From: an uncultured Thermoanaerobaculia bacterium
GTDB taxonomy: Bacteria; Acidobacteriota; Thermoanaerobaculia; Multivoradales; JBCCEF01
Length of the DNA stretch: 25,175 bases
Reading direction: 5' to 3'
NCBI GenBank assembly: GCA_964557755.1
Contig: CAZLBJ010000229.1
Coordinates: 1-25,175, forward strand
The notes below the pieces were generated by a model. The model worked only from the letters and a program-made list of their open reading frames with translations, searched no databases and was not told the origin of the DNA. The translations under genes were made by a program, and so were the position numbers. Of this stretch, positions 1 to 14,110 are shown one piece after another; position 1 is the first letter of the stretch, and each line of letters opens with the position of its first letter.

Positions 1-1186
<1,186 letters not shown>

Positions 1187-1190
<4 letters not shown>

Positions 1191-2881
1191 CGTCTCGTCC
1201 TCCGGGCCGGCGCCGGAGCGCCGGGCTCAGGGTGGCCGCCGTCGAGGGCGGGGTCGGGCTGTGGGCGGCGCGGCAGCCGCAGGCGGAAGGTGGTGCCACG
1301 GCCGGGCGCGGAGTCGACCTCGATCGTGCCGCCGTGGCGCTGCACGATGCCGTAGACCACGGCGAGGCCGAGGCCGACGCCGCTCTCCGCGTTCTTGGTC
1401 GAGAAGAAGGGCTCGAAGATGCGGCCCTGCACCTCCGGCGGGATGCCGACGCCGGTGTCGCGGATCGTCACCTCGACCGCCTGCGCGTCGCTGGAGAGCA
1501 GCACCTCGAGCTCGCCGCCGCGGTGGCCGTCGGCGGTCATCGCCTCGACGGCGTTGACCATCAGCGCCACCAGCGCCTGCTCGACCTGGCCGGCGTCGGC
1601 GATCATCGTCGGGTCGCCCTTGAGCATCTCGCAGTAGAGGTGGACGTCGCTCATCTCGAGGTGGTGGCGGACCAGCATCAGGCTGCGCTCGACCACCTCG
1701 TTGAGGTCGGTGGGCGCCATCGCGCCGTCGCCGGTGCGGCGTGCGAAGAGCAGCAGGTTCTGCACGATGCCGCCGCAGCGGCTGCACTCCTGCTGCAGGA
1801 AGCGCAGGTAGCCCGCCAGTTCCTCGCGCGTCTCGGCCGGCAGCTCCGGGTGGGCGGCGAGCTCGCGCTCGACCAGCCGCGCGTAGGTCAACATCGAGCT
1901 GATCGGGTTGTTGAGCTCGTGGGCGACGGTGGCGGAGAGCTTGCCCAGCGACGCCATCTTCTCCATGTGCACCACCTGGCGCTGGGTGCGCTGCAGCTCC
2001 TCGGACTTCTGCACCACCTTGTCCTCGAGCTTGCGCGACCAGTCGGCGAGCTCGTTGCGCGCCGCCTGCAGCTCGCCGGCCATGGAGTTGAAGGCGCCCG
2101 CCAGGTGCGCCAGCTCGTGGTCGCCGGCGACCACGATGCGGGTGTCGAGCTCGCCGTGGGCGATGCGGTCGGTGCCCTCGTGCAGGCGGTCCACGGGGCG
2201 CAGCACGACGCGGTTGACGAAGCCCGCCGACACCAGCCCGGTGATCAGCATCAGCGCCCCCATCGTCCACAGCGTCCGCCCCTTCGAGCGGTCGAGCGTC
2301 TCCTCGAGCGGCTGCAGCGAGACCTCGACCTCGAGGACGCCGAGCTTGCCCTCCTCGGCCTGCGAGCGGTGGCAGCCGGCGGAGGCGCAGTCGGGCTCGT
2401 TGGCGATCACCGAGACGTGGCGCAGCACCGGCACCGCGGCGTCGCGGCCGGCGCGGGCCAGCTCCATCGCCGCCACCGGCAGGCCGGCGTCGTCCGTCTC
2501 GCCCGGCAGGTGGCAGGCGACGCACGGGGCCTCGCTGAGCGCGGCGCGGCCGCCGATGTCGGCCGGGTGCGACGACATCGCCACCGTGCCGCCCATGTCG
2601 TAGATGCGGATCGCCGTCACGCTCGCGTCGCGGCCCAGGTTCTCGATGATGCTCTGCACCTGGTCCTTGCGGTTGAGCAGCATGCCGTCGTGGGTGGCGC
2701 GCTCGATCAGGCCGGCGCAGCGCTGCGCGTCGGTGCGCACCAGGGCGGTGAACTGCTCCTCGACGGCGCGCACGTTGAACCACGCGTACACCGCCAGCAC
2801 GGCGATGATGGTGACCAGCAGGGGGACCAGGAGGCGGGTGCTCAGCGACCCGAGCCCCGCGCGGAAGCGGCGGGTGGGCAT
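1187..2881 (-). CDS. Membrane sensor histidine kinase (TM - extracytoplasmic sensor with CxxCH - TM - HAMP - HisKA - HATPase), 564 aa
   Basis: True start is ATG 2881 (MPTRRF) with RBS GGAGGGG, inside track ORF 1187..4102. It has two TM helices, a HAMP domain (LRPVDRL...ELAHLAGAFNSM), H-box AHELNNP, N-box NAVEAM, DTGVGI, FEPFFSTK and GVGLGL. The sensor contains CVACH and CASAGCH. Confidence 0.95.
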
Positions 2882-3000
2882 GTCGGCCCCTCCGAAGTCC
2901 CGACGGAGGTTGTGCGGCCCGGAAGGATCCCGGTCCGCGGAGTGGGCCACCGGGAGAGCGCCGGTGGTCGGGACCGTCTCGACGGTAGCACAAAGGGGGC

Positions 3001-3037
3001 TGTGGGGAAACACCACGCGGTGTGGAATTTCTCGGCG
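3001..3037 (+). promoter_or_regulatory. Putative tandem enhancer (UAS) sites for a sigma-54 activator
   Basis: TGTGGGGAAACACCACG (3001) and TGTGGAATTTCTCGGCG (3021), 20 bp apart. The second matches 12/14 of the TGYCGAR-N3-YTCGRCA consensus seen at 4195/4216. Confidence 0.45.
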
Positions 3038-3138
3038 GTGAAAGGTGCCGCGTGTGAGCACGGGGAGGGCGGGTCCGGCGCCGAGAAATCCGCGCCGCGG
3101 CGGGGGATTCGCGGTGGCGGCGGCATCCAGCCGGCGGC

Positions 3139-3154
3139 GGGCTCCCGGCTTGCA
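3139..3154 (+). promoter_or_regulatory. Putative sigma-54 (-24/-12) promoter
   Basis: GGGCTCCCGGCTTGCA: GG(3140-41)-N10-GC(3152-53) with TTGCA, about 60 nt upstream of ATG 3216. Confidence 0.5.
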
Positions 3155-3215
3155 GCCGCAGCAGGGTGGCGGCGGGCGCGAGCGACGCTCCGCCGGCCGA
3201 GCGAGGAGGACGCCG

Positions 3216-4193
3216 ATGCACGCGACGAGCGAGGCTCCATCCGAGCGGCTGCCCTGCATCTGGATGACCGCCGGCCTGGTGCGCTGGCGGCTCTGCGACC
3301 GCGAGTACGACTGCGACCACTGCCCGTTGGACGCGGCGCTGCGCGGGGTGACCGTCGAGGCGGAGGAGGCGAACCCCTCGGCGAGGGCGGAGAGCTGGGA
3401 TCGAGTGCCGGGGCCTCTGGAGGCGGCTGGCGCGCACCCCTCGGCGAGGGGGGAGGAGCGGCGTGGCGGGGGAGGGCCGCTGCAGGCGGCCGCCGCGGAC
3501 CCCTCGGCGAAGGGGGGGAGCCGGGGTGGCGCGGAGGGGCGGCTGGAAACGGGCGGGGACGGGTCGGCGCCGGCGGAGAGCGGCCGTGGCCGCGGCGGCG
3601 AAGGCCGGCGGCGGGCGCCGGGGCGGGGCGAGTTCCCCGCCGACCGGCTGTTCGGCGCGGGACACACCTGGGCGCAGGTGGTCGCGGGCGGCGTGCCGGG
3701 CCGCTTCCGGGTCGGCCTCGACGGCTTCGCCGCGGCGCTGCTGGAGGCGCCGCGCGCCGTGCGCTGCGTCGCGGCCGGCAGCCGCCTGGCGATGGGCGAC
3801 GCCGCTTGCGAGGTCGATCTCGACGGCGGCGTGCTCACTCTCGGCGCACCGCTCGCCGGCGCGGTGGTGGCCGGCAACCGGCGGTGCCAGGACGACCCCG
3901 CCCTCCTCGCCGCCGATCCGTACGGCGACGGCTGGCTGCTGGAGCTGGCCGCCGGCACGCCGGCCGTGCCGGTCGACAACGCGGCCGGCGACGGTCTGCT
4001 CGCCGCCGAGGACGCGCGGCGCCGCGCCGGCCACGACCTGCGCCGCTTCCGCCGCCGCGTCGCGCTCGAGCTACTGGCCGCCGACGATGGCGTCGGCCCC
4101 ACCCTCCCCGACGGCGGCGAGCCGGTGGTCGACCTGCGCGGCCTGCTCGGCGCCCGCCGCTACCTCGATCTCCTGCGGGAGCTGGTCCACTGA
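3216..4193 (+). CDS. GcvH-fold protein 1 lacking lipoyl lysine, with N-terminal four-Cys motif, 325 aa
   Basis: ATG 3216 with RBS GAGGAGG. N-terminal CIWMTAGLVRWRLCDREYDCDHC. GcvH-like core HTWA...VGLDGFA...APLAGAVVAGN...DPYGDGWLLEL. The lipoyl hairpin reads DLDG instead of ESVK. Confidence 0.85.
   Translation: MHATSEAPSERLPCIWMTAGLVRWRLCDREYDCDHCPLDAALRGVTVEAEEANPSARAESWDRVPGPLEAAGAHPSARGEERRGGGGPLQAAAADPSAKGGSRGGAEGRLETGGDGSAPAESGRGRGGEGRRRAPGRGEFPADRLFGAGHTWAQVVAGGVPGRFRVGLDGFAAALLEAPRAVRCVAAGSRLAMGDAACEVDLDGGVLTLGAPLAGAVVAGNRRCQDDPALLAADPYGDGWLLELAAGTPAVPVDNAAGDGLLAAEDARRRAGHDLRRFRRRVALELLAADDGVGPTLPDGGEPVVDLRGLLGARRYLDLLRELVH
3357..3521 (+). repeat. Three degenerate 63-bp (21-aa) tandem repeats in the linker of GcvH-fold protein 1
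   Basis: GCG-nAC-CCC-TCG-GCG-ARG starts at 3369, 3432 and 3495 (exact 63-nt period), encoding EAEEANPSAR / EAAGAHPSAR / QAAAADPSAK. Confidence 0.7.
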
Positions 4194-4194
4194 C

Positions 4195-4232
4195 TGTCGA
4201 ATCCTTCGACACCGGTGCCGAGGAACTCGCCA
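4195..4232 (+). promoter_or_regulatory. Tandem palindromic activator-binding sites (UAS)
   Basis: Perfect palindrome TGTCGAA-TCC-TTCGACA (4195-4211) and near-palindrome TGCCGAG-GAA-CTCGCCA (4216-4232), 21 bp apart. Confidence 0.6.
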
Positions 4233-4331
4233 GCGCCGGTGCCCAAAACCGCGAACCCACGCACATGACGAACAAGCGTAACTATCTCTCGCCGAAGGGG
4301 TTGACGGCCTCACACCACCCTGTCCAGGGCG

Positions 4332-4347
4332 TGGTGGCCGCCTTGCA
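4332..4347 (+). promoter_or_regulatory. Putative sigma-54 (-24/-12) promoter
   Basis: TGGTGGCCGCCTTGCA: GG(4333-34)-N10-GC(4345-46), about 46 nt upstream of ATG 4394 (RBS GAGGAGG). Confidence 0.55.
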
Positions 4348-4393
4348 CCCGGACGTTTGCGGGGCCACCTGAACCGGTCCCGAGGAGGTTGTC

Positions 4394-5170
4394 ATGAGCA
4401 CCAAGCCGATGAAGATCCGCGAATCCGTCTCCCTGGCGGCGCTGGGACTGTCGATCGTCGTCCTGCTGCCGCTCGTCGCCGTCGCCGCCTTCGTGCTGCG
4501 CGCCGGCCTGTTCGCCGGGGCCCTGCTGGCCGTGATGGCCGGCATGGCGACCTTCGCCGTCAGCCCCCGGTTCCGCGAGTGGCTCGGGTTTCAAGTCGAG
4601 CCCGGCCTGACCTACAACGGCCTGCGCCTGGACACCGGCGTCGCCCTCGGCGACGGCCACGCGTGGGCCCGCTTCGACGGCGGCGAGGCCACCGTCGGTG
4701 CCGACGACCTGGTGGGCGCGGTGCTCGGCCCGGTCGAACAGGTGGACCTGCCCGGTCTCGGCACCCGCGTGCGCCGCGGCGAGCCGCTGTTCCGGCTGCG
4801 CCACGGCGACCGCACGGTGGCGGTGGCGTCGCCGATCGCCGGCACCGTCGTGCACGCCAACGCCGAGCTCGCCGACTCGCCGCACCTGGTCAACGAGGCG
4901 CCGTTCGACGCCGGCTGGGCGGTGCGCCTGGGCAGCGACGACCCGCGCGCCGATCGCGAGGTGCTGCGCCGCGGCGCCAAGGCGCGGGCCTGGTTCCGCG
5001 GCGAGGTGGACGGCCTGCTGGCCGACCTGCTGCCCGCCCAGGCCGGTGCCGTGCCGGCGCTGCCCGACGGCGGCGAGCTCGTAGAGGGCCTGCACCGCTA
5101 CATCGACGACGCCACCTGGAGCCGTCTCCAGGGCCGCTTCTTCACGCCGGCGGAGCGGAGCCTTTCGTGA
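4394..5170 (+). CDS. Membrane-anchored GcvH-fold protein 2 lacking lipoyl lysine, 258 aa
   Basis: N-terminal hydrophobic hairpin (two TM). HAWA...VGADD...LPGLGTRVRRGEPL...SPIAGTVVHANAEL...VNEAPFDAGW. The lipoyl position reads RHGD. Confidence 0.88.
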   Translation: MSTKPMKIRESVSLAALGLSIVVLLPLVAVAAFVLRAGLFAGALLAVMAGMATFAVSPRFREWLGFQVEPGLTYNGLRLDTGVALGDGHAWARFDGGEATVGADDLVGAVLGPVEQVDLPGLGTRVRRGEPLFRLRHGDRTVAVASPIAGTVVHANAELADSPHLVNEAPFDAGWAVRLGSDDPRADREVLRRGAKARAWFRGEVDGLLADLLPAQAGAVPALPDGGELVEGLHRYIDDATWSRLQGRFFTPAERSLS

Positions 5171-5213
5171 GCGCCGCCACCGGGCCGAACCCAGGACCGA
5201 CAGGAGCCTGATC

Positions 5214-6164
5214 ATGGATCGTCGTGGATTCCTCAAGCTCGCCGGGGTGGTGGCGGGAGGGGCGGTGGCCGGCGACGGCCACCGCGCCGAGGCCGCCGGC
5301 ACCGCCGCCGACTCCGGTGCCGCAGACTGGGCCGTCCTCGTCGACCTCACCCGCTGCGCCGGCTGCCGCATGTGCGAGGCGGCCTGCGCCGAGGCCAACG
5401 GGCTCGCCGAGCCGGACTGGTCGGACGACTTCTCCTACGCCGCCCCCCGCCCGGTGACCGACAAGCAGTGGTCCTCGGTCAACCGCTTCGAGACCACCAA
5501 GGGCGAGGTGTTCGTCAAGCGGCAGTGCATGCACTGCCAGGTGCCCGCCTGCGCCGCCGGCTGCCTCACCAAGGCGCTGTACAAGACCGACGAAGGGCCG
5601 GTGGTGTGGGCGGCGGACCGCTGCCTCGGGTGCCGCTACTGCATGGTCTCCTGCCCCTTCGACATGGCGCGCTGCGAGTACGACTCGCCCAACCCGAAGA
5701 TCAGCAAGTGCCGGATGTGCTACGAGAAGGTGAAGGCGGAGGGCGAGGGGTCGCTGCCGGCCTGCGTCGAGAACTGCCCGAACGAGGCGCTGACCTTCGG
5801 GCCGCGCGCCGAGCTCCTGGAGGTCGCGCGCCAGCGCATCTACACCAACCCCGGCCAGTACGTGTCGCACGTCTACGGCGAGCACGAGGCGGGCGGGACC
5901 GGCTGGCTCTACATCTCGCCGGTGGCGTTCGAGGAGATCGGCTTCCGCACCGACCTCGACACCGAGCCGTACCCCGAGAAGACCCGCGGCTTCCTCACCG
6001 CCGTGCCCCTGGTGCTGGTGCTGTGGCCGGCCTTCATGATGGCGCTGCGCCGCGCCACCGTCCGCGAGGACGAGGGCGGCTCCGGCCACCCGCTGCTGGC
6101 GGCGCCCACCGTCGAACCCACCACCCCGTCCGCCACGGAGGCGAGCGATGACTACCGCAACTGA
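5214..6164 (+). CDS. Tat-exported 4Fe-4S dicluster (four-cluster) protein, HybA/HmcB/NrfC family
   Basis: Tat motif MDRRGFLK. Cys motifs CAGCRMCEAAC, CMHCQVPACAAGC, CLGCRYCMVSC and CRMC...ACVENC. C-terminal TM helix. Confidence 0.93.
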   Translation: MDRRGFLKLAGVVAGGAVAGDGHRAEAAGTAADSGAADWAVLVDLTRCAGCRMCEAACAEANGLAEPDWSDDFSYAAPRPVTDKQWSSVNRFETTKGEVFVKRQCMHCQVPACAAGCLTKALYKTDEGPVVWAADRCLGCRYCMVSCPFDMARCEYDSPNPKISKCRMCYEKVKAEGEGSLPACVENCPNEALTFGPRAELLEVARQRIYTNPGQYVSHVYGEHEAGGTGWLYISPVAFEEIGFRTDLDTEPYPEKTRGFLTAVPLVLVLWPAFMMALRRATVREDEGGSGHPLLAAPTVEPTTPSATEASDDYRN

Positions 6165-7473
6165 GCGTCCCGCCACCGGCCTGCGCCGCGAAGGCGAGCG
6201 GCTGTGGCCGTTCCTGCGCCGCGAGCTGGCGCCGCGCGGCAAGTGGCTGACCCCGTTCAACGTCGTCTCGCTGGCCATCATGGCGACGGCGGCGGTGATC
6301 CTGGTCGTCCGCTTCACCTTCGGCCTCGGCTCGGTGACCAACCTGTCCCAGGAGTTCCCGTGGGGCATCTGGAAGGGCTTCAACGTCGTCACCGGCGTCG
6401 CCTTCGCCGGCGGTGCCTACGTGCTGACCTTCATGGTCTACGTGCTGCGCATGGAGAAGTACCGGCCCATCGTCCGCGTGACGGTGCTCAACGGCTTCCT
6501 GGCGTACACCTTCTACGCCGTCGCCCTGCTGCTCGAGCTCGGGCGGCCGTGGAAGATCATGAACCCGATCCTCGGCCACGAGTTCGGCCTCACCTCGGTG
6601 CTGTTCCTGATCGCCTGGCACTTCCTGCTCTACATCATCGCGCAGCTCCTGGAGTTCCTGCCGGCGACCGCCGAGTGGCTGAACCTGCGCAAGGTGCACC
6701 GGGCGCTGTCGTGGATGACGGTGGGCACGGTGATCTTCGGCATCACCCTGTCGACGCTGCACCAGTCGGCGCTCGGCGCGCTGTTCCTGATGGCCGAGCC
6801 GAAGATCCACCCGCTGTGGTACTCGGAGCTGATCCCGACGCTGTTCTTCATCTCCAGCATCTTCGCCGGGCTCTCCCTGGTGATCCTGGAGGGGAGCCTG
6901 TCGCACCGGGTGTTCCGCGACCGCATGGGAGCGCCGCTGAAGCGTGGACACGACGACATCCTGGTCGGCCTCGGCCGCATCGCCGGCGCCGCGATGTTCG
7001 TCTACCTCTTCCTCGAGCTGCTCAAGCTCCTGCACGGCGGGTTGCTCGGGCAGATCCAGGGGCCCTGGGGCGCCTGGTACGTGGTCGAGATCGGCGTCTT
7101 CACGGCGATCCCGATGGCGCTCTTCCTGTGGGCGTCGAGCCGCCGCGACCTGCGCTGGATCCAGGTCGGTGCCGGCATGACCCTGGTGGGCATCGTGCTC
7201 AACCGCCTGAACATCTCGCTGATCGCCTTCAAGTGGTACGCGCCGGTGCACTACGTGCCGACGTGGATGGAGGTGGTGGTGGCGGCGGCGGTGATCTGCG
7301 CCGAGGTGTGGGTGTTCCGCTGGGTGATCGAGCGCATGCCGGTGCTCGGCGGCGAGCCCGCGTGGGCCGAGCACCACGAAGCACACGGCCGCGCCGCGGC
7401 CCCGGCCGCGGCACCGCGCGCCGTGCCGCAACCGATCACCGCCCGGTCGACGGCCGGCACGGTGCAGAACTGA
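6148..7473 (+). CDS. NrfD/PsrC-family polytopic membrane protein, HybB/HmcC-like
   Basis: Many hydrophobic helices. Motifs GLGSVTNLSQEFPWGIWKGF, LLELGRPW, STLHQSALG and IHPLWYS. Overlaps the Fe-S gene by 17 nt. Confidence 0.92.
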   Translation: MTTATERPATGLRREGERLWPFLRRELAPRGKWLTPFNVVSLAIMATAAVILVVRFTFGLGSVTNLSQEFPWGIWKGFNVVTGVAFAGGAYVLTFMVYVLRMEKYRPIVRVTVLNGFLAYTFYAVALLLELGRPWKIMNPILGHEFGLTSVLFLIAWHFLLYIIAQLLEFLPATAEWLNLRKVHRALSWMTVGTVIFGITLSTLHQSALGALFLMAEPKIHPLWYSELIPTLFFISSIFAGLSLVILEGSLSHRVFRDRMGAPLKRGHDDILVGLGRIAGAAMFVYLFLELLKLLHGGLLGQIQGPWGAWYVVEIGVFTAIPMALFLWASSRRDLRWIQVGAGMTLVGIVLNRLNISLIAFKWYAPVHYVPTWMEVVVAAAVICAEVWVFRWVIERMPVLGGEPAWAEHHEAHGRAAAPAAAPRAVPQPITARSTAGTVQN

Positions 7474-7483
7474 GGAGGCAGCG

Positions 7484-8239
7484 ATGGACTTCATGGCGAG
7501 CAAGGGCATCGAATACCTGATGGTGATCGGCTACCTGCTGCTCTGCATCCCCTTCTGGCTGCTGCTGCAGCGCTGGACGCGGCCGGCGATGGCGGCGGTG
7601 CCGGCGTGGGTGGGCGACCCGGTGGCGGCGATCCGCGGCTGGTTCGCCGTCCCCGACGGGCCGTCCTACCACCGCGGCCACACCTGGGCCTTGCCGGTTG
7701 CACCGGTGGAAGAGACGCTCGGCGGCGGCACCCGCTTCCGGGTCGGCGTCGACGACTTCGCGCAGCGCCTGCTCGGGCGGCCCGACGGCCTCGAGCTGCC
7801 GCGCGTCGGCGCCCGGCTGAGGGAAGGGGAGGCGGGCTTCCGCTTCCGCCTCGACGGGCGGACGGTGGACCTGCTGAGCCCGGTGGGCGGCAAGGTGGTG
7901 GCGCTCAACCCCGACGTGCTGGCCGATCCCGGCCGGGTGGGCGCCGACCCCTACGGCGGCGGCTGGCTGTTCGAGGTCGAAGCGCCGGCGGCGGCGCTGC
8001 GCAACCTGCTGCCGGCGCGGCTGGCGCGGAGCTGGATGGAGGAGACGGCGGAGGCCTTGAGCGGCCGGCTGTCGGCGGAGCTGGGGCCGGTGCTCCAGGA
8101 CGGTGGCGTGCCGGTCCCCGGCTTCGCCCGCGAGCTGTCGCCGGACCGCTGGCACGAGATCGCCGCCGAGCTCCTCCTCACCGCGCCGCCGCCGGCGGCC
8201 CCCACCGACACGGTCTCCTCGGACGCCGCCCCGCCCTAG
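7484..8239 (+). CDS. Membrane-anchored GcvH-fold protein 3 lacking lipoyl lysine, 251 aa
   Basis: RBS GAGGAGG. N-terminal TM (KGIEYLMVIGYLLLCIPFWLLL). GHTWA...VGVDDFA...LPRVGARLREGE...SPVGGKVVALN...DPYGGGWLFEV. The lipoyl position reads RLDG. Confidence 0.9.
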   Translation: MDFMASKGIEYLMVIGYLLLCIPFWLLLQRWTRPAMAAVPAWVGDPVAAIRGWFAVPDGPSYHRGHTWALPVAPVEETLGGGTRFRVGVDDFAQRLLGRPDGLELPRVGARLREGEAGFRFRLDGRTVDLLSPVGGKVVALNPDVLADPGRVGADPYGGGWLFEVEAPAAALRNLLPARLARSWMEETAEALSGRLSAELGPVLQDGGVPVPGFARELSPDRWHEIAAELLLTAPPPAAPTDTVSSDAAPP

Positions 8240-8271
8240 CACCCCACTGCAGGGCGAGACGGGGCCCCCTC

Positions 8272-8310
8272 GCGGGGGCGGAGCGATCGCGACTCCGCCC
8301 CCGCTCTTTG
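8272..8310 (+). terminator. Intrinsic terminator-like hairpin between convergent genes
   Basis: Perfect 12-bp stem GCGGGGGCGGAG/CTCCGCCCCCGC with a 9-nt loop, followed by TCTTTG. Confidence 0.65.
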
Positions 8311-8312
8311 CG

Positions 8313-9545
8313 TCAGTCCTTCTTGCGCGCCTTCTCGAAGACTTCGGCCATGGAGCCGAGTCCCGCGCCGAGGCGGCCCGCGTCGCCCGCGGCGTGCTCG
8401 GCGACCTCTTCGCGGCCGGCGGTGGCGAGGGAGGTGGCGAGGGAGAGGGAGATGCGGTGGCGCTTGGCGTCGATCTCGAGGACGCGGACCTCGACCTCCT
8501 GGCCGAGGTCGACCACCTCGCGCGGGTGGCCGACGCGGCGGTTGGCGGCCAGCTCCGAGACGTGGACCAGGCCCTCGACGCCGGGCGCGATCTCGACGAA
8601 GGCGCCGAAGGACTCGAGGCGCTTGACCAGGCCGCGGACGGTGGCGCCCGGCTTGAAGCGCTCCTTCACCGCCTCCCACGGGTCGCCGAGCAGGGCGCGG
8701 CGCGACAGCGAGATGCGCTTGCCGCCCTTGTCGCGCTCTTCGATCGCCAGCACCTTGACCTCCAGCACGTCGCCCGCGGTGATCATCGACGCCGGGTCCT
8801 CGACCCGGCCGTGCGTCAGCTCGCTGACGTGCAGCAGGCCCTCGACGCCGCCGAGGTCGACGAAGGCGCCGTAGGCGGTGACGGACGTCACCGTGCCGCG
8901 CACCACGGCGCCGGGCTGGATGCGCGCCAGCGCCTCCTCCTGGCGCTGCCGGCGCTCCTCCTCGAGCAGGTCGCGGCGGCTGAGTACCACGTCCGGGCGG
9001 CCGCCGCGGCCGGCGGCCTCGACTTTGCGCACCCGGAAGGTGAGGTTGCGGCCCACGAACTCCGCCGCGTCCTCGACGAAGGCGATGTCGAGCTGCGAGA
9101 TGGGACAGAAGGCGCGCAGCCCGGAGACGGTGACCGCCACGCCGCCCTTGACCACCTCGGCCACCGTGCCCTCGACCGGGATGCCGTGCTCGTGCGCCTG
9201 CGAGAGCTCCTGGAGGGCGAGCTGCACGTCGCCGCCGGCGCTCGACCCGCCCGGGCGCACGCGCAGCACCAGGCAGCCGCTGTCGGCGTCGCGGCCGCTG
9301 ACCAGCCCCTCCACCGTGTCGCCGACGCCGACCGTGAGGCCGCCGTCGGCGTCGAGCAGCTCGGCGGTGGCCACCACCGCGTCGGACTTGGCGCCGACGT
9401 CGACGAAGGTCTGCTCGTCGCCGATCGAGATCACCCGCCCGGAGGCGCGCTCGCCGGGCTTGGGGTCGGTGCCGGGGGCGTCCTGCCCGCTCTCGAACTC
9501 CGCCAGGATGGCCGCGAAGTCGCGGCTGTCGTCGTTCTTCGCCAT
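8313..9545 (-). CDS. S1 RNA-binding domain protein (four S1 domains; 30S ribosomal protein S1-like, probably a paralogue), 410 aa
   Basis: True start ATG 9545 (MAKNDD) within track ORF 8313..11852. Four S1 repeats, e.g. GAFVDLGGVEGLLHVSEL and GAFVEIAPGVEGLVHVSEL, plus RAFCPISQLD and ISLS. Confidence 0.9.
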   Translation of the reverse strand: MAKNDDSRDFAAILAEFESGQDAPGTDPKPGERASGRVISIGDEQTFVDVGAKSDAVVATAELLDADGGLTVGVGDTVEGLVSGRDADSGCLVLRVRPGGSSAGGDVQLALQELSQAHEHGIPVEGTVAEVVKGGVAVTVSGLRAFCPISQLDIAFVEDAAEFVGRNLTFRVRKVEAAGRGGRPDVVLSRRDLLEEERRQRQEEALARIQPGAVVRGTVTSVTAYGAFVDLGGVEGLLHVSELTHGRVEDPASMITAGDVLEVKVLAIEERDKGGKRISLSRRALLGDPWEAVKERFKPGATVRGLVKRLESFGAFVEIAPGVEGLVHVSELAANRRVGHPREVVDLGQEVEVRVLEIDAKRHRISLSLATSLATAGREEVAEHAAGDAGRLGAGLGSMAEVFEKARKKD

Positions 9546-9590
9546 GGGCCTGCGATCATAGCGCCCCCTGCTACGATGCAGGCGGCCATG
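9543..9590. promoter_or_regulatory. Symmetric bidirectional promoter with back-to-back -10 boxes
   Basis: Minus strand: GCTATGAT-CGCAGGC-CC-ATG(9545). Plus strand: TGCTACGAT-GCAGGC-GGCC-ATG(9588). No RBS on either side. Confidence 0.5.
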
Positions 9591-12581
9591 CCCCCGAAGA
9601 TCCGCGACGTCGCGGCGGTCACCACCTACGAGTCGTTGATGCCGCACCTGGTGCAGCAGGTGCTGCTGGTGGCGAGCGCCTACGACAGCTTCATCCTCGA
9701 GGAGGAGGGGCGCTTCTCCGACCGCCTGCTCGGCCAGTACCTCGAGCTCGACCTCTCCAGCCCGCCGACCTTCCAGCACGTGCCGTCGGCGCGCAAGGCG
9801 CTGCAGCAGCTGCGCCGCGACCCCTACGACCTGGTGGTGACGACGCCGCACATCTCCGACATGTCGCCGCAGCAGCTCGGCGCGGAGATCGCCGACCGCC
9901 ACCCGGGGACGCCGGTGCTGCTGCTGACCTACGACCGCGTCGACGCCCAGTCGTGGGCCGACCGCTGGGCCGAGCGCCGCCAGCCGGAGGGCATCGACAA
10001 CGTCTTCCTGTGGACCGGCGATCCGCGCCTGCTGCTGGCCATGGTGAAGGCGGTGGAGGACCGGAAGAACGTCGACCACGACACGCGCAACGGCCTGGTG
10101 CGGGTGATCATCGTGGTCGAGGACCAGCCGGCGGTCTACTCGTCGTTCCTGCCCATCATCTACTCGGAGCTGCTCGAGCAGATCCGCTCGCTGCTCGCCG
10201 ACCGCCTCAACGAGCGCGACCGCAACTACCGCATGCGCGCGCGGCCGAAGATCCTGCTGGCGCGCTCGTTCGAGGAGGGGCGGTCGCTGCTGCGGCGCTA
10301 CAAGGACTACCTGCTGGGGGTGATCTCCGACGTCCGCTTCCCGCGCCGCGGCCGCCTCGACCCGACGGCCGGCCTCGACTTCATCCAGCTGGTGCGCGAG
10401 CAGGTCCCGGACCTGCCGATCCTGCTCCACTCGCGCGAGCCCGAGCACGCCGCCACCGCCCGCGAGTTGGGGGTGGGCTTCGTCGACAAGAACTCGCCGG
10501 AGCTCTTGGGCGAGCTGCGCACCTTCATGCGCCGCAACTTCGGCTTCGGCCCCTTCGTCTTCCGCGTCGAGGGCGACGAGCAGGCGTACCGCGCCGACAC
10601 CATCCAGGAGATGCTGGAGGTGCTGCGCGAGGTGCCGGCTGCGTCGCTGCTCTACCACGCGTCGCGCAACCACGTCTCCAACTGGCTGATGGCGCGCGGC
10701 GAGTTCCCGCTGGCCATCGAGGTGCGGCCGAAGAAGGTCTCCGACTTCAAGGACGCCGAGGAGCTGCGCCGCTACCTGGTCGAAGTCTTCTCCGACTTCC
10801 TCGAGCAGCGCCAGCGCGGCCAGGTGACCGACTTCCGCGGCCGGCCGGATCCGCTGCGCCGCGACTTCCTGCGCCTCGGCCGCGGCTCGATGGGCGGCAA
10901 GGCGCGCTCGATCGCCTTCATGGCGGCGCTCAAGGCGAAGGACCAGGTGACGGAGCGCTGGCGCGAGGCGTTTCCCGGGGTCAAGGTGATCGTGCCGCGC
11001 ACGGCGGTGATCTGCACCGACGTCTTCGACCGCTTCTGCGCCCGCGGCAACCTGCGCGAGCGGGCGATGGAGGCGGAGACCGACGCCGAGGTGGCGGCGC
11101 TGTTCCTCGCCCAGCCGCTCGACTTCGAGCTCACCGCCGACCTCGCCTCGATCCTGCGCGAGGTGCGCTACCCGCTGGCGGTGCGCTCGTCGAGCCTGCT
11201 CGAGGACTCCGAGTACCAGCCGCTGGCCGGCCTCTACCGCACCTACCTGCTGCCCAACTGCTCGCCGTCGGACGAGGTGCGGCTCGAGCAGCTCTCGCGC
11301 GCCGTGCGCCTGGTCTTCGCGTCGACCTTCTTCCGCGGCCCGCGCACCTGCATGGAGGCGACCTCGCTGCGCATCGAGGAGGAGAAGATGGCGGTGATCG
11401 TCCAGCGCCTGGTGGGCCGGCGCTGGAACAGCCACTTCTACCCCCACTTCGCCGGCGTCGCCCAGTCGCACAACTACTACCCGCTGGGCCACATGCAGCC
11501 GGAGGAGGGGATCGCCACCGTGGCGCTGGGACTGGGCCACGCGGTGGTGGGCGGCGGCGCCGGCCTGCGCTTCAGCCCGCGCCACCCGCAGGTGCTGCCG
11601 CAGATGTCGTCGACCGCCGACGCGCTGCGCAACTCGCAGCGCGAGCTCTACGCGCTCGACCTCGGCGAGCCGGAGGTCGAGGTGGGGCTCGACGACCTCG
11701 GCAACCTCCTGCGCCTCGACCTCGCGGCGGCGGAGGCCGACGGCACGCTCGAGCCGGTGGGCGCCACCTACTCGCCCGACAACGACCGCATCTACGACAG
11801 CGTCCACCGCAAGGGCGTGCGGCTGGTCAACTTCGCGGGCGTCCTCAAGCACGGCCGCTTCCCGCTGGCGCCGCTGCTCGACGAGGTGCTGGAGCTCTGC
11901 CGCCAGGGCATGGGGACGCCGTGCGAGCTGGAGTTCGCGGTGTCGCTGGGCGACGGCGAGACGCCGTCGGAGCTGGCGCTGCTGCAGCTACGGCCGCTGA
12001 TCGCCCAGGGGCGCGACAAGGAGGTGGACCTCGGCCAGGCGGGCGACCGGCCGCGCCTGCTGGCCGGGCCGGCACTCGGCAACGGCGTCATCGGCGACGT
12101 GCGCGACGTCGTCTACGTCCACCCGGACCGCTTCAACACCCGCGACACGCCGGCCCTGGCACAGGCGGTGGCGAGGATGAACGAGCGGCTGGCGGCGCGC
12201 CACCGTCCCTACCTGCTGCTCGGCCCCGGCCGCTGGGGCACCGCCGACCGCTGGCTGGGCGTGCCGGTCTCCTGGAGCCAGGTGTCGGCGGCGCGGGTGA
12301 TCGTCGAGCTGGAGATGCCGGACGGCGGCGTCGACCCCTCCCAGGGCACCCACTTCTTCCACAACATCACCTCCCTGCGCATCGGCTACTTCACCATCGA
12401 CCCCGCGGCCGACGGCCAGCACGTCGACTTCGCCCGCCTGGAGGCCCTGCCGGCCGTCGAGGAGGACGGCCCCCTCCGCCACGTCGAGCTCCCGGAGCCG
12501 GCCGAGGCGTGGATCGACGGACGGAGCGGGCGGGGGGTGGTGGTGGTGGGGGAGGGGAGAGAGGACGATCGGGCGAAGTGA
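9588..12581 (+). CDS. Receiver-domain / PEP-pyruvate-binding (PPDK N-terminal ATP-grasp) protein, about 997 aa (alternative start 9576)
   Basis: Pseudo-receiver, then a receiver (VVED...ISDVRFP...LLHS...FVDK), then PPDK_N-like motifs GSMGGKARSIAF, PLAVRSSSLLED...AGLY, MAVIVQRLVG and ELEFA, with a C-terminal PSQGTHFF motif. Confidence 0.88.
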   Translation: MPPKIRDVAAVTTYESLMPHLVQQVLLVASAYDSFILEEEGRFSDRLLGQYLELDLSSPPTFQHVPSARKALQQLRRDPYDLVVTTPHISDMSPQQLGAEIADRHPGTPVLLLTYDRVDAQSWADRWAERRQPEGIDNVFLWTGDPRLLLAMVKAVEDRKNVDHDTRNGLVRVIIVVEDQPAVYSSFLPIIYSELLEQIRSLLADRLNERDRNYRMRARPKILLARSFEEGRSLLRRYKDYLLGVISDVRFPRRGRLDPTAGLDFIQLVREQVPDLPILLHSREPEHAATARELGVGFVDKNSPELLGELRTFMRRNFGFGPFVFRVEGDEQAYRADTIQEMLEVLREVPAASLLYHASRNHVSNWLMARGEFPLAIEVRPKKVSDFKDAEELRRYLVEVFSDFLEQRQRGQVTDFRGRPDPLRRDFLRLGRGSMGGKARSIAFMAALKAKDQVTERWREAFPGVKVIVPRTAVICTDVFDRFCARGNLRERAMEAETDAEVAALFLAQPLDFELTADLASILREVRYPLAVRSSSLLEDSEYQPLAGLYRTYLLPNCSPSDEVRLEQLSRAVRLVFASTFFRGPRTCMEATSLRIEEEKMAVIVQRLVGRRWNSHFYPHFAGVAQSHNYYPLGHMQPEEGIATVALGLGHAVVGGGAGLRFSPRHPQVLPQMSSTADALRNSQRELYALDLGEPEVEVGLDDLGNLLRLDLAAAEADGTLEPVGATYSPDNDRIYDSVHRKGVRLVNFAGVLKHGRFPLAPLLDEVLELCRQGMGTPCELEFAVSLGDGETPSELALLQLRPLIAQGRDKEVDLGQAGDRPRLLAGPALGNGVIGDVRDVVYVHPDRFNTRDTPALAQAVARMNERLAARHRPYLLLGPGRWGTADRWLGVPVSWSQVSAARVIVELEMPDGGVDPSQGTHFFHNITSLRIGYFTIDPAADGQHVDFARLEALPAVEEDGPLRHVELPEPAEAWIDGRSGRGVVVVGEGREDDRAK

Positions 12582-12995: not shown

Positions 12996-13028
12996 TGGTT
13001 GTGATCCATGGGCCAGTCGGCGGCAGAC

Positions 13029-13346
13029 CTAACCTTCCCGCGGTGGCTCGGGCATCTCAAGAGCGGTCAGGTCCTCGATGTCGACATCCGGCAGCTTCGC
13101 GTATTCCGTCGAGATCAGCCGCTCAAGGGGCTTCCGCAGCTCCTTGAGATGGTGTACCAAGTGAGAGTACAGCTCCACTTGGAGCTCGACCAGTGCATCG
13201 GATGCAACATCCGGCGCATTTCCAAATTGCCGATCGAGCTTCGCGAGGTGCGATCGAATGTGGTCGGCTGCCTCCAGGACGCCCTCAAGGTGGAAGGCGA
13301 CGGCACTCGACGGATCCTTTTGTCGGAGTTGTCGGAAGAAACTCAT
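13029..13346 (-). CDS. Hypothetical alpha-helical protein, possible orphan immunity protein (105 aa)
   Basis: ATG 13346 (MSFFRQL) preferred over the TTG at 13400. Low GC, co-oriented with the Rhs gene. Confidence 0.55.
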   Translation of the reverse strand: MSFFRQLRQKDPSSAVAFHLEGVLEAADHIRSHLAKLDRQFGNAPDVASDALVELQVELYSHLVHHLKELRKPLERLISTEYAKLPDVDIEDLTALEMPEPPREG

Positions 13347-13396
13347 ACCTCCACCCCCGCTCTCTTGGCAAGCTCTTGTGGAATGGGTAGGTCCGT

Positions 13397-13819: not shown

Positions 13820-13879
13820 TTCAACTCCTGGGTTACGCGCCCGGGACAGCCGCTTGCTCGGCAGTCGTCCTCATCGTCA

Positions 13880-14095: not shown

Positions 14096-14110
14096 AGTCC
14101 TTTCATACGA

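What the first reader, a model, noticed from the sequence alone, without database searches (positions are those of the whole stretch)
3216..8239. Three lipoyl-less GcvH-fold proteins wrapped around an enzyme-less HybAB/HmcBC-like redox module
Seen: the gene order is GcvH-like / GcvH-like / Tat 4x[4Fe-4S] / NrfD-type membrane protein / GcvH-like, ending at a terminator. Aligned to canonical GEPFGVVESVKAASDIYAP, the lipoyl Lys is replaced by G, D and G. Two of the three are membrane-anchored, probably with the domain in the cytoplasm (positive-inside rule). No gcvP/T, lipoate ligase, hydrogenase, molybdoenzyme or multiheme cytochrome is in the operon. Established: GcvH, LbpA (sHdr) and GcvH-L all work through a lipoylated Lys, and HybAB/HmcBC normally wire a catalytic subunit to the quinone pool. 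Inference: an uncharacterised membrane complex in which the lipoyl fold has been repurposed (scaffold, adaptor or sensor) to couple a quinone-linked redox module to cytoplasmic partners.
Basis: partly seen in the sequence, partly recalled or inferred. Interest (0 to 1): 0.82.

Follow-up and report, generated by a model that had tools for sequence, protein, structure and literature searches.

The report
Lipoyl-less GcvH proteins on Hmc-like module
A conserved, unstudied gene set joins a quinone-linked iron-sulfur/membrane protein pair to three GcvH-shaped proteins that have lost their lipoate-carrying lysine. The whole set is controlled by a neighbouring haem-containing sensor kinase, which suggests the GcvH fold has been reused as a signalling or adaptor domain.

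Summary
Window 3216-8239 encodes GcvH-like G1, GcvH-like G2, a Tat 4x[4Fe-4S] HmcB/HybA-like protein, an HmcC/HybB-like NrfD protein and GcvH-like G3. The lipoyl Lys is replaced by G, D and G, and only 8 of 352 related domains carry a Lys there. G2 and G3 are membrane-anchored with the domain in the cytoplasm.

A divergent two-component system (1-2881, minus strand) encodes a kinase with CxxCH and Cx4CH haem motifs in its periplasmic loop, plus an NtrC-type sigma-54 activator. A -24/-12 element (3139-3154) precedes G1 here and in all 7 related loci examined.

In Holophagaceae and Thermoanaerobaculia the same kinase sits in FeS-NrfD-kinase-[receiver domain fused to a G2-type GcvH domain]. Other relatives fuse G3 to a tetrahaem cytochrome, or replace it with a small membrane protein plus a 12-18-haem cytochrome.

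Best reading: an Hmc/Cbc-like quinone-to-periplasmic-cytochrome module under redox-sensing sigma-54 control, with lipoyl-less GcvH domains as cytoplasmic regulatory or adaptor subunits. No paper describing it was found. What the domains bind is inferred, not shown.

The parts
1..1190 (-). NtrC-type sigma-54 activator (receiver + sigma-54 AAA+ with GAFTGA + AAA lid). The 3' end with the HTH is cut by the contig end. Its ATG overlaps the kinase stop codon (ATGA).
   Evidence: Translation. Pfam Response_reg 1.8e-33, Sigma54_activat 3e-70, AAA_lid_14 1.4e-23. The same gene follows the kinase in related loci.
1187..2881 (-). Sensor histidine kinase, 564 aa: TM1 (17-35), a periplasmic loop of about 168 aa with CVACH (120-124) and CASAGCH (165-171), TM2 (204-222), then HAMP, HisKA and HATPase_c.
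   Evidence: Pfam HAMP, HisKA and HATPase_c. Hydropathy. CxxCH plus Cx4CH, 41-43 residues apart, in all 13 HK reading frames long enough to include the periplasmic loop, in both locus classes. Both motifs are invariant in alignment A5.
3139..3154 (+). Sigma-54-type -24/-12 promoter element GGGCTCCCGGCTTGCA, 62 nt upstream of the G1 start codon.
   Evidence: GG-N10-GC with TTGCA. An equivalent element (for example TGGCGCTTGCCTTGCA, TGGCTCCCGACTTGCT) lies upstream of G1 in all 7 other class-A loci examined. This is a consensus-level match and was not tested functionally.
3216..4193 (+). G1: soluble lipoyl-less GcvH-fold protein. It has an N-terminal 4-Cys motif (C14, C27, C33, C36: CIWMTAGLVRWRLCDREYDCDHCPLDAAL), a low-complexity linker that includes a 63-bp x 2.8 in-frame tandem repeat (3369-3545), a GcvH domain and a C-terminal helical extension of about 70 aa.
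   Evidence: Pfam GCV_H 2e-9. The Cys motif is conserved in all class-A loci, and C27, C33 and C36 are invariant in A4. In the AF2 model the GcvH domain and extension have pLDDT above 90 and the Cys motif has low pLDDT. Tandem repeat. The family search returned 258 clusters.
4394..5170 (+). G2: lipoyl-less GcvH-fold protein with two N-terminal hydrophobic segments (probably a hairpin) and the family-specific C-terminal extension (ARxWFRxEVDRLL ... LPDGGxLV ... IDDxxW).
   Evidence: Pfam GCV_H 5.8e-18. Family alignment A2. AF2 and Foldseek. Hydropathy. The G2-type domain is the one fused to the receiver domain in class-B loci.
5214..6164 (+). Tat-exported 4x[4Fe-4S] protein with a C-terminal TM anchor (HmcB/HybA-like).
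   Evidence: The twin-arginine signal MDRRGFLK and four Cys clusters are readable in the sequence. Pfam Fer4_11. NCBIfam HmcB 310 bits (cutoff 420) and HybA 200 bits (cutoff 263). The closest solved relative is FdnH, 1kqf_B.
6148..7473 (+). NrfD-family integral membrane protein (HmcC/HybB-like), haem-free and quinone-interacting by homology. Its start overlaps the FeS gene by 17 nt.
   Evidence: Pfam NrfD 1.8e-13. NCBIfam HmcC 352 bits over positions 2-374 of 376 (cutoff 550) and HybB 240 bits. Multiple TM peaks.
7484..8239 (+). G3: a single N-terminal TM helix carrying the conserved motif MDFMASKGIEYLMVIGYLLL, then a lipoyl-less GcvH domain and the C-terminal extension.
   Evidence: Pfam GCV_H 2.5e-11. 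The TM motif is conserved in G3 orthologues and occurs as a stand-alone small ORF after NrfD in L011, L057 and L090. It is fused to a tetrahaem cytochrome in L020.
8272..8304 (.). GC-rich hairpin between the convergent G3 and S1-domain genes. It is a probable bidirectional terminator with a weak U-tract.
   Evidence: RNA fold of 8236-8320: -44.1 kcal/mol, z = -2.26. Not called by the consensus scan.

Best explanation
The locus is one regulatory and bioenergetic unit with three parts.

1. Sensor. A membrane kinase whose periplasmic loop carries two c-type haem attachment motifs senses periplasmic, cytochrome-pool or quinone-pool redox state (inferred). It phosphorylates an NtrC-type activator (inferred from gene pairing).

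2. Promoter. The activator fires a sigma-54 promoter in front of G1-G2-FeS-NrfD-G3. The promoter motif is shown; its activation is inferred.

3. Output. The FeS/NrfD pair is an Hmc/Cbc-type module that moves electrons between the membrane quinone pool and periplasmic haem proteins (by homology). In sister loci the cytochrome is encoded in the operon. Here it is either encoded elsewhere or is the kinase's own haem domain.

The three GcvH-fold proteins do not carry lipoate. They are cytoplasm-facing, non-catalytic protein-binding domains.
- G3 is a fixed subunit of the FeS/NrfD module, held by its conserved TM helix.
- G2 is the effector end of the signalling pathway. In Holophagaceae it is physically fused to the kinase's receiver domain.
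- G1 is a soluble partner with a 4-Cys metal site.

I propose that the three domains assemble on the cytoplasmic face of NrfD and tune the module there, for example by acting on its proton path or turnover. Alternatively they feed its state back to the kinase pathway. In the window, control would be by induced expression. In Holophagaceae it would be by phosphorylation.
For: Domain identities.

Loss of the Lys across the family: 8 of 352 domains carry it. The fold is intact. The residue after the Lys-equivalent position (R140 in G2) is at least 90% conserved, which suggests the hairpin tip is still a functional surface.

Conserved synteny: divergent kinase plus sigma-54 regulator with G1/G2 (+FeS/NrfD/G3) in Acidobacteriota, Gemmatimonadales, Phycisphaerales and unclassified MAGs.

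Reciprocal survey seeded with the kinase sensor domain: 23 of 36 loci with enough upstream DNA have G1/G2. Of 17 such loci with at least 3 kb upstream, 14 have the FeS protein.

Sigma-54 element upstream of G1 in 8 of 8 loci.

Linking fusions and variants:
- TM-receiver-GcvH in an FeS-NrfD-kinase-RR operon. It forms more than 120 clusters in Geothrix/Holophagaceae, including a cultured strain.
- Tetrahaem cytochrome-TM-GcvH.
- The G3 TM motif as a stand-alone ORF after NrfD, followed by a 12-18-haem c3/c7-type cytochrome.
- Three, or two, tandem lipoyl-less GcvH domains in a single polypeptide (P0232, P0276). This is consistent with several such domains acting together.

Regulatory precedent: in Geobacter the cbcBA quinone oxidoreductase operon has a sigma-54 promoter and a divergent sigma-54 response regulator, BccR, and is induced at low redox potential (bioRxiv 10.1101/2021.04.15.440034).

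NrfD subunits have a cytoplasm-facing proton path (PMC13059093).
Against: - No physical interaction, phosphotransfer, haem attachment or promoter activity has been shown. Every functional arrow is inferred from synteny and fusions.
- TCS+G1+G2 occurs without adjacent FeS/NrfD/G3 (L002, L007, L019; 3 of 17). The target of G1/G2 therefore need not be NrfD.
- 13 of 36 kinase-seeded loci have no GcvH-like gene nearby.
- Holophagaceae lack G1 and G3, and their FeS protein has no Tat signal. That complicates a single topology model.
- G2 and G3 have no conserved Cys in the domain, so a redox role is unlikely. That says nothing positive about what they bind.
- The AF2 model shows the G2 N-terminus as one long helix, so the hairpin topology is inferred from hydropathy and charge only.
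Confidence: 0.42

Rival explanations
1. Sensor-wire model. The FeS/NrfD pair is not a respiratory enzyme but the input device of the kinase. It equilibrates the kinase's periplasmic haems with the quinone pool, so that the two-component system reads quinone redox state. The GcvH-like proteins are scaffolds that hold the kinase and the wire together.
For: In the window the kinase's di-haem loop is the only haem protein encoded next to a module that normally needs a periplasmic cytochrome partner. In class-B loci FeS, NrfD, kinase and receiver-GcvH form one operon with no other output.
Against: In class-A loci the FeS/NrfD genes sit behind the sigma-54 promoter, so they are outputs of the system. 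Many variants encode large multihaem cytochromes typical of electron-transfer complexes. The kinase occurs with G1/G2 but without FeS/NrfD nearby.
Confidence: 0.2
2. The GcvH-like proteins are still carriers. They would hold a different covalent or tightly bound group (on the conserved hairpin, or on G1's Cys motif) and shuttle it to or from an unidentified cytoplasmic enzyme, in analogy to LbpA in sHdr systems or DsrC with DsrMKJOP.
For: The hairpin region stays conserved. G1 has an invariant 4-Cys motif. A relative fuses three lipoyl-less GcvH domains to a GlcD-like FAD oxidase plus an HdrD-like Fe-S/CCG domain. lipA lies next to the receiver-GcvH gene in Geothrix.
Against: There is no Lys at the tip in 98% of domains. 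G2 has no Cys at all, and G3 has one, in the TM helix. No ligase, transferase or cytoplasmic oxidoreductase is conserved in the loci. NrfD has no haem to carry electrons across the membrane (established for the family). The lipA adjacency is convergent, sits among housekeeping genes and is seen only within one family.
Confidence: 0.1
3. The GcvH-like proteins are assembly or maturation chaperones for the FeS/NrfD complex (or for the haem kinase), and are not part of the working machine.
For: They are accessory-sized, non-catalytic, co-transcribed and membrane-tethered.
Against: A phospho-receiver fused to a chaperone domain is hard to rationalise. The G3 TM helix is replaced in relatives by a stand-alone small subunit and can be fused to a cytochrome, which points to a structural subunit. 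G1/G2 also occur without FeS/NrfD.
Confidence: 0.08
4. This is an ordinary HybAB/HmcBC pair whose catalytic partner (hydrogenase, cytochrome or molybdoenzyme) is encoded elsewhere, and the GcvH-like genes are unrelated neighbours.
For: The FeS and NrfD proteins are clear HmcB/C and HybA/B homologues. The contig is only 25 kb, so the rest of the genome is unseen.
Against: The five-gene order recurs in several named lineages and in many metagenomes. Gene fusions tie GcvH domains to the module and to its kinase. Scores are below the equivalog cutoffs for both HmcBC and HybAB.
Confidence: 0.05

Closest known systems
Hmc complex (HmcABCDEF) of Desulfovibrio and related Tmc/Nhc/Ohc complexes
   Same: A Tat 4x[4Fe-4S] HmcB-like protein and an HmcC-like NrfD protein are the best NCBIfam matches. 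L057's NrfD reaches 495 of 550 bits. Sister loci add a small TM subunit and a 12-18-haem c3-type cytochrome, with partial matches to the HmcA, TmcA and 9-haem cytochrome models.
   Different: There is no HmcE (cytochrome b) or HmcF (HdrD-like), so no route for electrons across the membrane. The cytoplasmic side is occupied by lipoyl-less GcvH-fold proteins instead. The window variant has no cytochrome subunit. Scores are below the equivalog cutoffs. The hosts are Acidobacteriota, Gemmatimonadota and Planctomycetota, not sulfate reducers.
HybA/HybB of E. coli hydrogenase-2
   Same: Second-best family matches. Same architecture: a tail-anchored Tat FeS protein plus a haem-free NrfD-type quinone subunit.
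   Different: No hydrogenase structural or maturation genes are present. Scores are below cutoff (200 vs 263, and 240 vs 450 bits).
Geobacter cbcBA operon with its divergent sigma-54 response regulator BccR (also the Cbc-type quinone oxidoreductase clusters)
   Same: An inner-membrane quinone-linked electron-transfer module sits behind a sigma-54 promoter and is divergently transcribed from an RpoN-dependent response regulator. The Geobacter operon begins with hypothetical proteins and is induced by low redox potential.
   Different: CbcBA is a di-haem b / seven-haem c cytochrome pair, not FeS/NrfD. The Geobacter papers do not report GcvH-like genes there: GSU0597 and GSU3489 are listed only as hypothetical, and I could not test their sequences. 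Here the kinase is adjacent and itself carries haem motifs.
GcvH, LbpA (sHdr) and GcvH-L lipoyl carrier proteins
   Same: The same fold, with TM 0.84-0.92 to solved H-proteins and GcvH-L, and the Pfam GCV_H domain.
   Different: There is no lipoyl Lys and no P/T/L proteins, Hdr genes, ligases or SirTM/macrodomain genes. There are added TM anchors, a C-terminal extension of about 70 aa with no Pfam match and, in G1, a 4-Cys motif. Scores are 47-60 bits against a cutoff of about 116 for the GcvH equivalog.
Cofactor-less barrel-sandwich-hybrid domains of membrane redox complexes (RnfC_N, NqrA_N)
   Same: A lipoyl/biotinyl-like fold without a swinging arm, inside membrane-bound quinone-linked or ion-motive redox complexes. 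Relatives of the family give marginal or below-cutoff Pfam matches to RnfC_N and NQRA_N.
   Different: Those domains belong to large catalytic subunits. Here the domains are small separate proteins, are closer to GcvH than to RnfC/NqrA, and are tied to two-component signalling.
Periplasmic haem-c sensor domains of Geobacter chemoreceptors (Pfam PF21563, Mcp40H-20_sensor)
   Same: A periplasmic sensor loop between two TM helices, followed by HAMP, with a covalent haem motif. There is a weak match for the Geothrix kinase (E = 1.9e-4).
   Different: The match is below the Pfam cutoff, and there is no match for the window kinase. This kinase has two motifs (CxxCH plus Cx4CH). The output is a kinase, not a chemoreceptor.

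Membership tests
GcvH (glycine cleavage H protein; PF01597 / TIGR00527) | H-protein fold | tested here: met
   Pfam GCV_H is above its cutoff for G1, G2 and G3. The AF2 model of G2 matches 1onl, 1htp and 3a8i with target-normalised TM 0.88-0.92.
GcvH (glycine cleavage H protein; PF01597 / TIGR00527) | Lipoyl-accepting Lys at the hairpin tip | tested here: not met
   The position is G, D and G in the window proteins. Lys is present in only 8 of 352 family domains.
GcvH (glycine cleavage H protein; PF01597 / TIGR00527) | Score above the curated equivalog cutoff | tested here: not met
   TIGR00527 gives 34-60 bits against a cutoff of 115.9. NF002270 gives 47-60 bits against 117.
GcvH (glycine cleavage H protein; PF01597 / TIGR00527) | Association with gcvP/gcvT/lpd or lipoate ligases | tested here: not met
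   None is present in the window or in the related loci. The only nearby lipoate gene is a convergent lipA in Geothrix.
HmcB/HmcC (NF045715 / NF045714) | Tat-exported 4x[4Fe-4S] protein plus NrfD-family membrane protein | tested here: met
   Twin-arginine signal and four Cys clusters. Pfam Fer4_11 and NrfD. HmcB and HmcC are the best NCBIfam matches.
HmcB/HmcC (NF045715 / NF045714) | Equivalog score cutoff | tested here: not met
   310 bits against 420 for HmcB, and 352 bits against 550 for HmcC.
HmcB/HmcC (NF045715 / NF045714) | Co-encoded HmcA (16-haem cytochrome) and HmcD, HmcE, HmcF | tested here: not met
   All are absent from the window. Relatives have a multihaem cytochrome and a small TM protein but never a cytochrome b or an HdrD-like subunit.
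HybA/HybB (hydrogenase-2 membrane module) | Equivalog score and adjacent hydrogenase genes | tested here: not met
   200 bits against 263, and 240 bits against 450. There are no hydrogenase genes in the window or in related loci.
NtrC-type two-component system driving a sigma-54 promoter | Receiver plus sigma-54 AAA+ domain with GAFTGA, and a cognate HisKA/HATPase kinase | tested here: met
NtrC-type two-component system driving a sigma-54 promoter | C-terminal HTH DNA-binding domain | not testable with these tools
   The contig ends inside the gene. Orthologues carry HTH_8.
NtrC-type two-component system driving a sigma-54 promoter | -24 GG / -12 GC promoter at the target operon | tested here: met
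   GGGCTCCCGGCTTGCA at 3139-3154, with equivalents in 7 of 7 other class-A loci. This is sequence-level evidence only.
Haem-c periplasmic sensor domains (PF21563-like) | CxxCH in a periplasmic loop between two TM helices | tested here: met
   CVACH and CASAGCH lie between TM 17-35 and TM 204-222. Both motifs are invariant in A5.
Haem-c periplasmic sensor domains (PF21563-like) | Significant match to the family model | tested here: not met
   No Pfam or PDB match for the window sensor. The Geothrix kinase gives only E = 1.9e-4, 22 bits against a cutoff of 27.
Haem-c periplasmic sensor domains (PF21563-like) | Covalently bound haem | not testable with these tools
   This needs haem staining or spectroscopy of the expressed protein.
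LbpA / sHdr lipoate-binding proteins | Lipoyl Lys, hdr-like genes and dedicated lipoate ligase | tested here: not met
   No hdr or ligase genes are present.

The most novel reading that the evidence does not exclude
The lipoyl-less GcvH domain with its C-terminal extension is a previously unrecognised signalling domain. It would act as the output of a phospho-relay (receiver-GcvH in Holophagaceae, and sigma-54-induced free-standing copies elsewhere) and dock onto the cytoplasmic face of an NrfD-type quinone module. There it would switch the module's proton coupling or activity. That would be post-translational control of respiratory efficiency by a two-component system that senses periplasmic redox state through its own haems.
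Probability: 0.25. Interest if true: 0.85.

Novelty: new variant of a known kind. Interest (0 to 1): 0.68.

Why it matters
NrfD/FeS 'dimeric redox modules' are a core unit of anaerobic respiration. How their activity and coupling are regulated is largely unknown.

This locus defines a large family: 850 clusters at 50% identity with E <= 1e-30. It spans several named lineages (Acidobacteriota, Gemmatimonadales, Phycisphaerales). In it, such a module is genetically and physically (by fusion) tied to a haem-bearing sensor kinase and to GcvH-fold domains that cannot be lipoylated.

If the proposal holds, three things follow.
- It adds a new output domain to the catalogue of response regulators.
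- It shows a new fate for one of the oldest cofactor-carrier folds.
- It gives a testable handle on redox-dependent control of quinone-linked electron transfer in soil and sediment Acidobacteriota, including cultured Fe(III)-reducing Geothrix.

It also flags hundreds of database entries that some sources label 'glycine cleavage system H protein' and that are almost certainly mis-annotated.

Tried and rejected
- Exact look-up of the window NrfD protein found nothing.
A 12-sequence subset worked.
- My first Pfam calls used wrong frames, for the regulator and for the 9.5-12.6 kb gene. Both were corrected later.
- A strict TGGCAC-N5-TTGC search missed the promoter, which has 2 mismatches. It was found by GG-N10-GC scoring and by conservation.
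- Pfam at E <= 10 and PDB sequence searches found nothing for the G1 Cys motif, for the C-terminal extensions, or for the window kinase sensor loop. No solved relative was found for the NrfD protein by sequence.
- AlphaFold2 could not model the G1 Cys motif (pLDDT 35-64).
- The consensus terminator and promoter scan found nothing in 2800-8500.
- Seven of the eight literature searches found no paper on this gene set: GcvH with NrfD/HmcB, GcvH with histidine kinase, GcvH-like with membrane-anchored, NrfD redox modules, response-regulator GCV_H output, Geothrix with NrfD, and GSU0597. The eighth retrieved the Geobacter cbcBA/BccR work used as the regulatory precedent.
- I considered whether the Geobacter cbcBA-operon hypothetical proteins are GcvH-like. 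The papers call them only 'hypothetical', and I had no search left to test their sequences.
- Taxonomy of the window could not be established. Cluster members carry no organism names.
- Pseudogenised or decaying GcvH paralogues were rejected. There are three distinct, deeply conserved orthologous groups with family-specific motifs.
- A defence-system or mobile-element reading was not pursued, because nothing in the locus suggested it.

Full report
**1. What is in the window**

The window has about 72% G+C. It appears to be a whole 25,175-bp contig from a metagenome-type assembly. Between 3216 and 8239 lie five co-directional genes with short gaps or overlaps:
- G1, 3216-4193, 325 aa.
- G2, 4394-5170, 258 aa.
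- An Fe-S protein, 5214-6164, 316 aa.
- An NrfD-family protein, 6148-7473, 441 aa, overlapping the Fe-S gene by 17 nt.
- G3, 7484-8239, 251 aa.

Pfam assigns GCV_H to G1, G2 and G3 (E = 2e-9, 5.8e-18 and 2.5e-11, all above the gathering score). It assigns Fer4_11 plus a TAT signal to the Fe-S protein and NrfD to the membrane protein. NCBIfam ranks HmcB and HmcC first and HybA and HybB second. All are below the equivalog cutoffs: 310 vs 420, 352 vs 550, 200 vs 263 and 240 vs 450 bits.

The Fe-S protein has MDRRGFLK, four Cys clusters and a C-terminal TM helix.

A GC-rich hairpin (8272-8304) separates G3 from a convergent S1-domain gene. It has only a three-U tail, and the consensus scan does not call it.

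**2. The lipoyl lysine is gone, in the window and in the family**

The Lys of E. coli GcvH (ESVKAAS; sequence supplied from memory) aligns with G in G1, D in G2 and G in G3. An independent HMM alignment gives the same result.

Across 352 domain instances from three searches, only 8 have Lys in that column.

The fold itself is intact. The AlphaFold2 model of G2 (33-sequence alignment) has pLDDT 89. It matches solved H-proteins with target-normalised TM 0.88-0.92 and rmsd 1.3-1.7 A. The G1 domain is also confident.

The proteins share a C-terminal extension of about 70 residues (W-F-R-x-E-V-D ... L-P-D-G-G ... I-D-D-x-x-W) that has no Pfam match.

The residue just after the former Lys position is at least 90% conserved as Arg in the G2 family. 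I infer that the hairpin tip is still under selection.

G1, G2 and G3 are three separate orthologous groups, not recent duplicates.

**3. Topology**

Hydropathy gives no TM segment in G1, two adjacent hydrophobic segments in G2 and one in G3.

Two fusions in relatives settle the sidedness:
- L020 encodes signal peptide-tetrahaem cytochrome c-TM-GcvH(G3 type). This places the G3 N-terminus outside and the domain inside.
- The Holophagaceae and Thermoanaerobaculia proteins are TM-receiver-GcvH. A receiver domain must be cytoplasmic.

**4.

Two genes lie on the minus strand:
- 1187-2881 encodes a histidine kinase (HAMP, HisKA, HATPase_c). Its 168-residue periplasmic loop carries CVACH and CASAGCH.
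- 1-1190 encodes an NtrC-type activator: receiver, sigma-54 AAA+ with GAFTGA, and lid. It is cut by the contig end.

The two haem-attachment motifs are present, 41-43 residues apart, in all 13 kinase reading frames long enough to include the periplasmic loop. They are invariant in the sensor alignment.

A -24/-12 element (GGGCTCCCGGCTTGCA, 3139-3154) lies 62 nt upstream of G1. An equivalent element was found upstream of G1 in all seven other loci examined.

The operon is therefore, in all likelihood, the sigma-54 target of this two-component system.

**5. Related loci**

*Seeded with G2* *and with G1*.

Class-A loci have [regulator <- kinase] | G1 G2 FeS NrfD G3. They come from Acidobacteriota, Phycisphaerales, an unclassified bacterial chromosome and several metagenomes.
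- Some loci have only kinase/regulator plus G1 plus G2 (L002/L003, the Gemmatimonadales locus L007, and L019).
- A Peptidase_M54 gene often follows the regulator.

Class-B loci (Geothrix, Holophagaceae, Thermoanaerobaculia) have FeS-NrfD-kinase-[TM-receiver-GcvH] on one strand.
- The fused domain is closest to G2.
- This fusion protein forms more than 120 clusters at 90% identity. One is in the complete genome of the cultured Geothrix sp. 21YS21S-4, between groESL and lipA.

*Seeded reciprocally with the kinase sensor domain* in metagenomes.
- 23 of 36 class-A-like loci with at least 1.2 kb upstream carry G1/G2.
- Of 17 loci with G1/G2 and at least 3 kb upstream, 14 carry the Fe-S protein.
- Every class-B locus with enough sequence has FeS-NrfD upstream and receiver-GcvH downstream.
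- 13 loci have no GcvH-like gene. Several of these have other ORFs upstream instead, including a Tat-signal protein in L030 and L061.

**6. G3 belongs to the FeS/NrfD module, and the module is Hmc-like**

The G3 N-terminal motif (F-x-x-[TS]-K-G-I-E-Y-L plus a TM helix) is conserved. It also occurs as a stand-alone 40-70-residue ORF directly after NrfD in L011, L057 and L090.

In the variants that lack G3 (L008, L042, L057, L065, L090), a cytochrome with 12-18 CxxCH motifs lies downstream of NrfD, preceded by such a small ORF in L057 and L090. Its domains are of c3, c7 and paired-CxxCH type, and it partly matches the HmcA, TmcA and nine-haem models. L057's NrfD scores 495 of 550 bits against HmcC. 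L011 and L021 also encode multihaem cytochromes.

The ancestral unit therefore looks like HmcA/B/C/D without HmcE/F. The window variant has no cytochrome gene, and its small subunit is fused to a GcvH-like domain.

NrfD proteins have no haem (established for the family). Without a cytochrome b there is no obvious path for electrons to the cytoplasm. G2 has no Cys at all, and G3 has only one, in the TM helix. I conclude that the GcvH-like domains are not redox carriers.

**7. Family size and other architectures**

A profile search of 1.84 billion representatives found 850 proteins at E <= 1e-30. Two architectures stand out:
- P0276 has the G3-type TM helix plus two tandem GcvH-like domains.
- P0232 has three tandem lipoyl-less GcvH domains fused to a GlcD-like FAD oxidase and an HdrD-like Fe-S/CCG domain. 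It is encoded next to another two-component system and a UbiA gene.

Three domains in one chain parallel the three separate proteins here. This is consistent with several domains working as one assembly (inference).

**8. Mechanism**

*Shown:* the domain content, the loss of Lys, the topology-defining fusions, the conserved synteny with a haem-motif kinase, the sigma-54 regulator and its promoter motif, the receiver-GcvH fusion and the cytochrome-containing variants.

*Inferred:*
- The kinase senses periplasmic or quinone-pool redox state through its haems.
- It induces an Hmc/Cbc-like module (class A) or directly controls one by phosphorylation (class B).
- The GcvH-fold domains are cytoplasmic regulatory or adaptor subunits. 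G3 is anchored in the module, G2 is the pathway's effector and G1 is a soluble metal-binding partner.

NrfD subunits take up or release protons through a cytoplasm-facing path (PMC13059093; PMC6303296). That path is a plausible point of action, but this is speculation.

The closest regulatory precedent is Geobacter cbcBA with BccR. There a sigma-54 operon for a quinone oxidoreductase is induced at low potential and divergently transcribed from its sigma-54 response regulator.

The main rival is that FeS/NrfD is the kinase's input wire rather than its output. The two readings are not exclusive.

**9. Novelty**

I found no paper on this gene set. Where sources give the proteins a name, it is 'glycine cleavage system H protein', 'response regulator' or 'CheY-like'.

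The parts are known kinds: an NrfD/FeS module, a sigma-54 two-component system and the H-protein fold. Their combination, and the use of a lipoyl-less H-protein fold as a signalling or adaptor domain, are new.

I rate it a new variant of a known kind. There is a real chance that the domain function is categorically new.

**10. Limits**

- Nothing here is biochemical.
- The organism is unidentified.
- The contig ends inside the regulator gene.
- The G2 hairpin topology, haem attachment, promoter function and all protein contacts are predictions.
- The Holophagaceae Fe-S protein lacks a Tat signal, which no model here explains.

Noticed in passing
window 3369-3545: An in-frame 63-bp tandem repeat (2.8 copies, 76% matches) sits inside the G1 linker. 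It gives a repeated ~21-residue Pro/Ser/Ala/Arg/Gly-rich unit and explains why the window's G1 is 325 aa against about 243 aa in most orthologues.
   Followed up: partly
window 14550-19538 (-), 14111-14623 (-), GC dip at 13000-15000: A 1662-aa RHS/YD-repeat protein with a signal peptide and a divergent C-terminal end. It is followed by a small membrane-protein ORF, in a region where G+C falls from about 0.72 to 0.56-0.60. This looks like a polymorphic-toxin locus with a swapped toxin tip and an immunity gene.
   Followed up: partly
window 9576-12581 (+): A 1001-aa protein with a PPDK_N (PEP/pyruvate-binding) domain and a weak, probably degenerate, N-terminal receiver-like region. It lies next to a convergent four-S1-domain protein at 8313-9620.
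   Followed up: no
L013 10514-11437 (-); L024 11158-12042 (-): In Geothrix, the lipoyl synthase gene lipA lies immediately downstream of the receiver-GcvH gene and convergent to it. That GcvH domain has no tip Lys, although most Holophagaceae copies keep a Lys three residues earlier (LFTLKG..G). This may be coincidence within one family.
   Followed up: partly
L010, L013, L016, L015 (FeS gene starts): The Fe-S proteins of Holophagaceae and one Thermoanaerobaculales locus start directly at the first cluster (MGMGLLFDATRCIGCGAC) with an in-frame stop just upstream. They therefore have no Tat signal, yet keep the C-terminal TM helix. L011 and L008 do have Tat signals. Export by hitch-hiking or an inverted orientation is unresolved.
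   Followed up: partly
L022 3234-7409 (protein P0232): A 1391-aa protein with three tandem lipoyl-less GcvH domains, a GlcD-like FAD oxidase domain and an HdrD-like Fer4_8 plus 2x CCG domain. It is encoded after a PAS/GAF kinase and an OmpR-type regulator, and before a UbiA prenyltransferase.
   Followed up: partly
L001 5235-5780, L002 5014-5571, L019 3872-4405, L020 3874-4476: A Peptidase_M54 (archaemetzincin-like) gene follows the sigma-54 regulator in four class-A loci. The window ends before this position.
   Followed up: no
L030 4974-6470 (-), L061 6282-7856 (-): Some loci have the same haem-motif kinase and sigma-54 regulator but no GcvH-like genes. Upstream they carry instead a ~500-aa protein with a Tat-like signal (RREFLG...) and a small membrane protein. 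This may be an alternative target operon of the same sensor.
   Followed up: no
L021 9273-12470: A variant with kinase/regulator plus G1, then a 469-aa Tat Fe-S protein with a hydrophobic C-terminal region, small ORFs and a multihaem cytochrome, but no recognisable G2, NrfD or G3. The contig may carry frameshifts. Similar G1+FeS-only patterns occur in L028, L052, L059 and L085.
   Followed up: no
L011 8530-10546: The Thermoanaerobaculia locus encodes two receiver-GcvH proteins in tandem. One is soluble and lacks the C-terminal extension. The other is TM-anchored and has it. They are followed by a five-haem cytochrome, a Tat Fe-S protein, NrfD and a 40-aa G3-TM-like ORF.
   Followed up: partly
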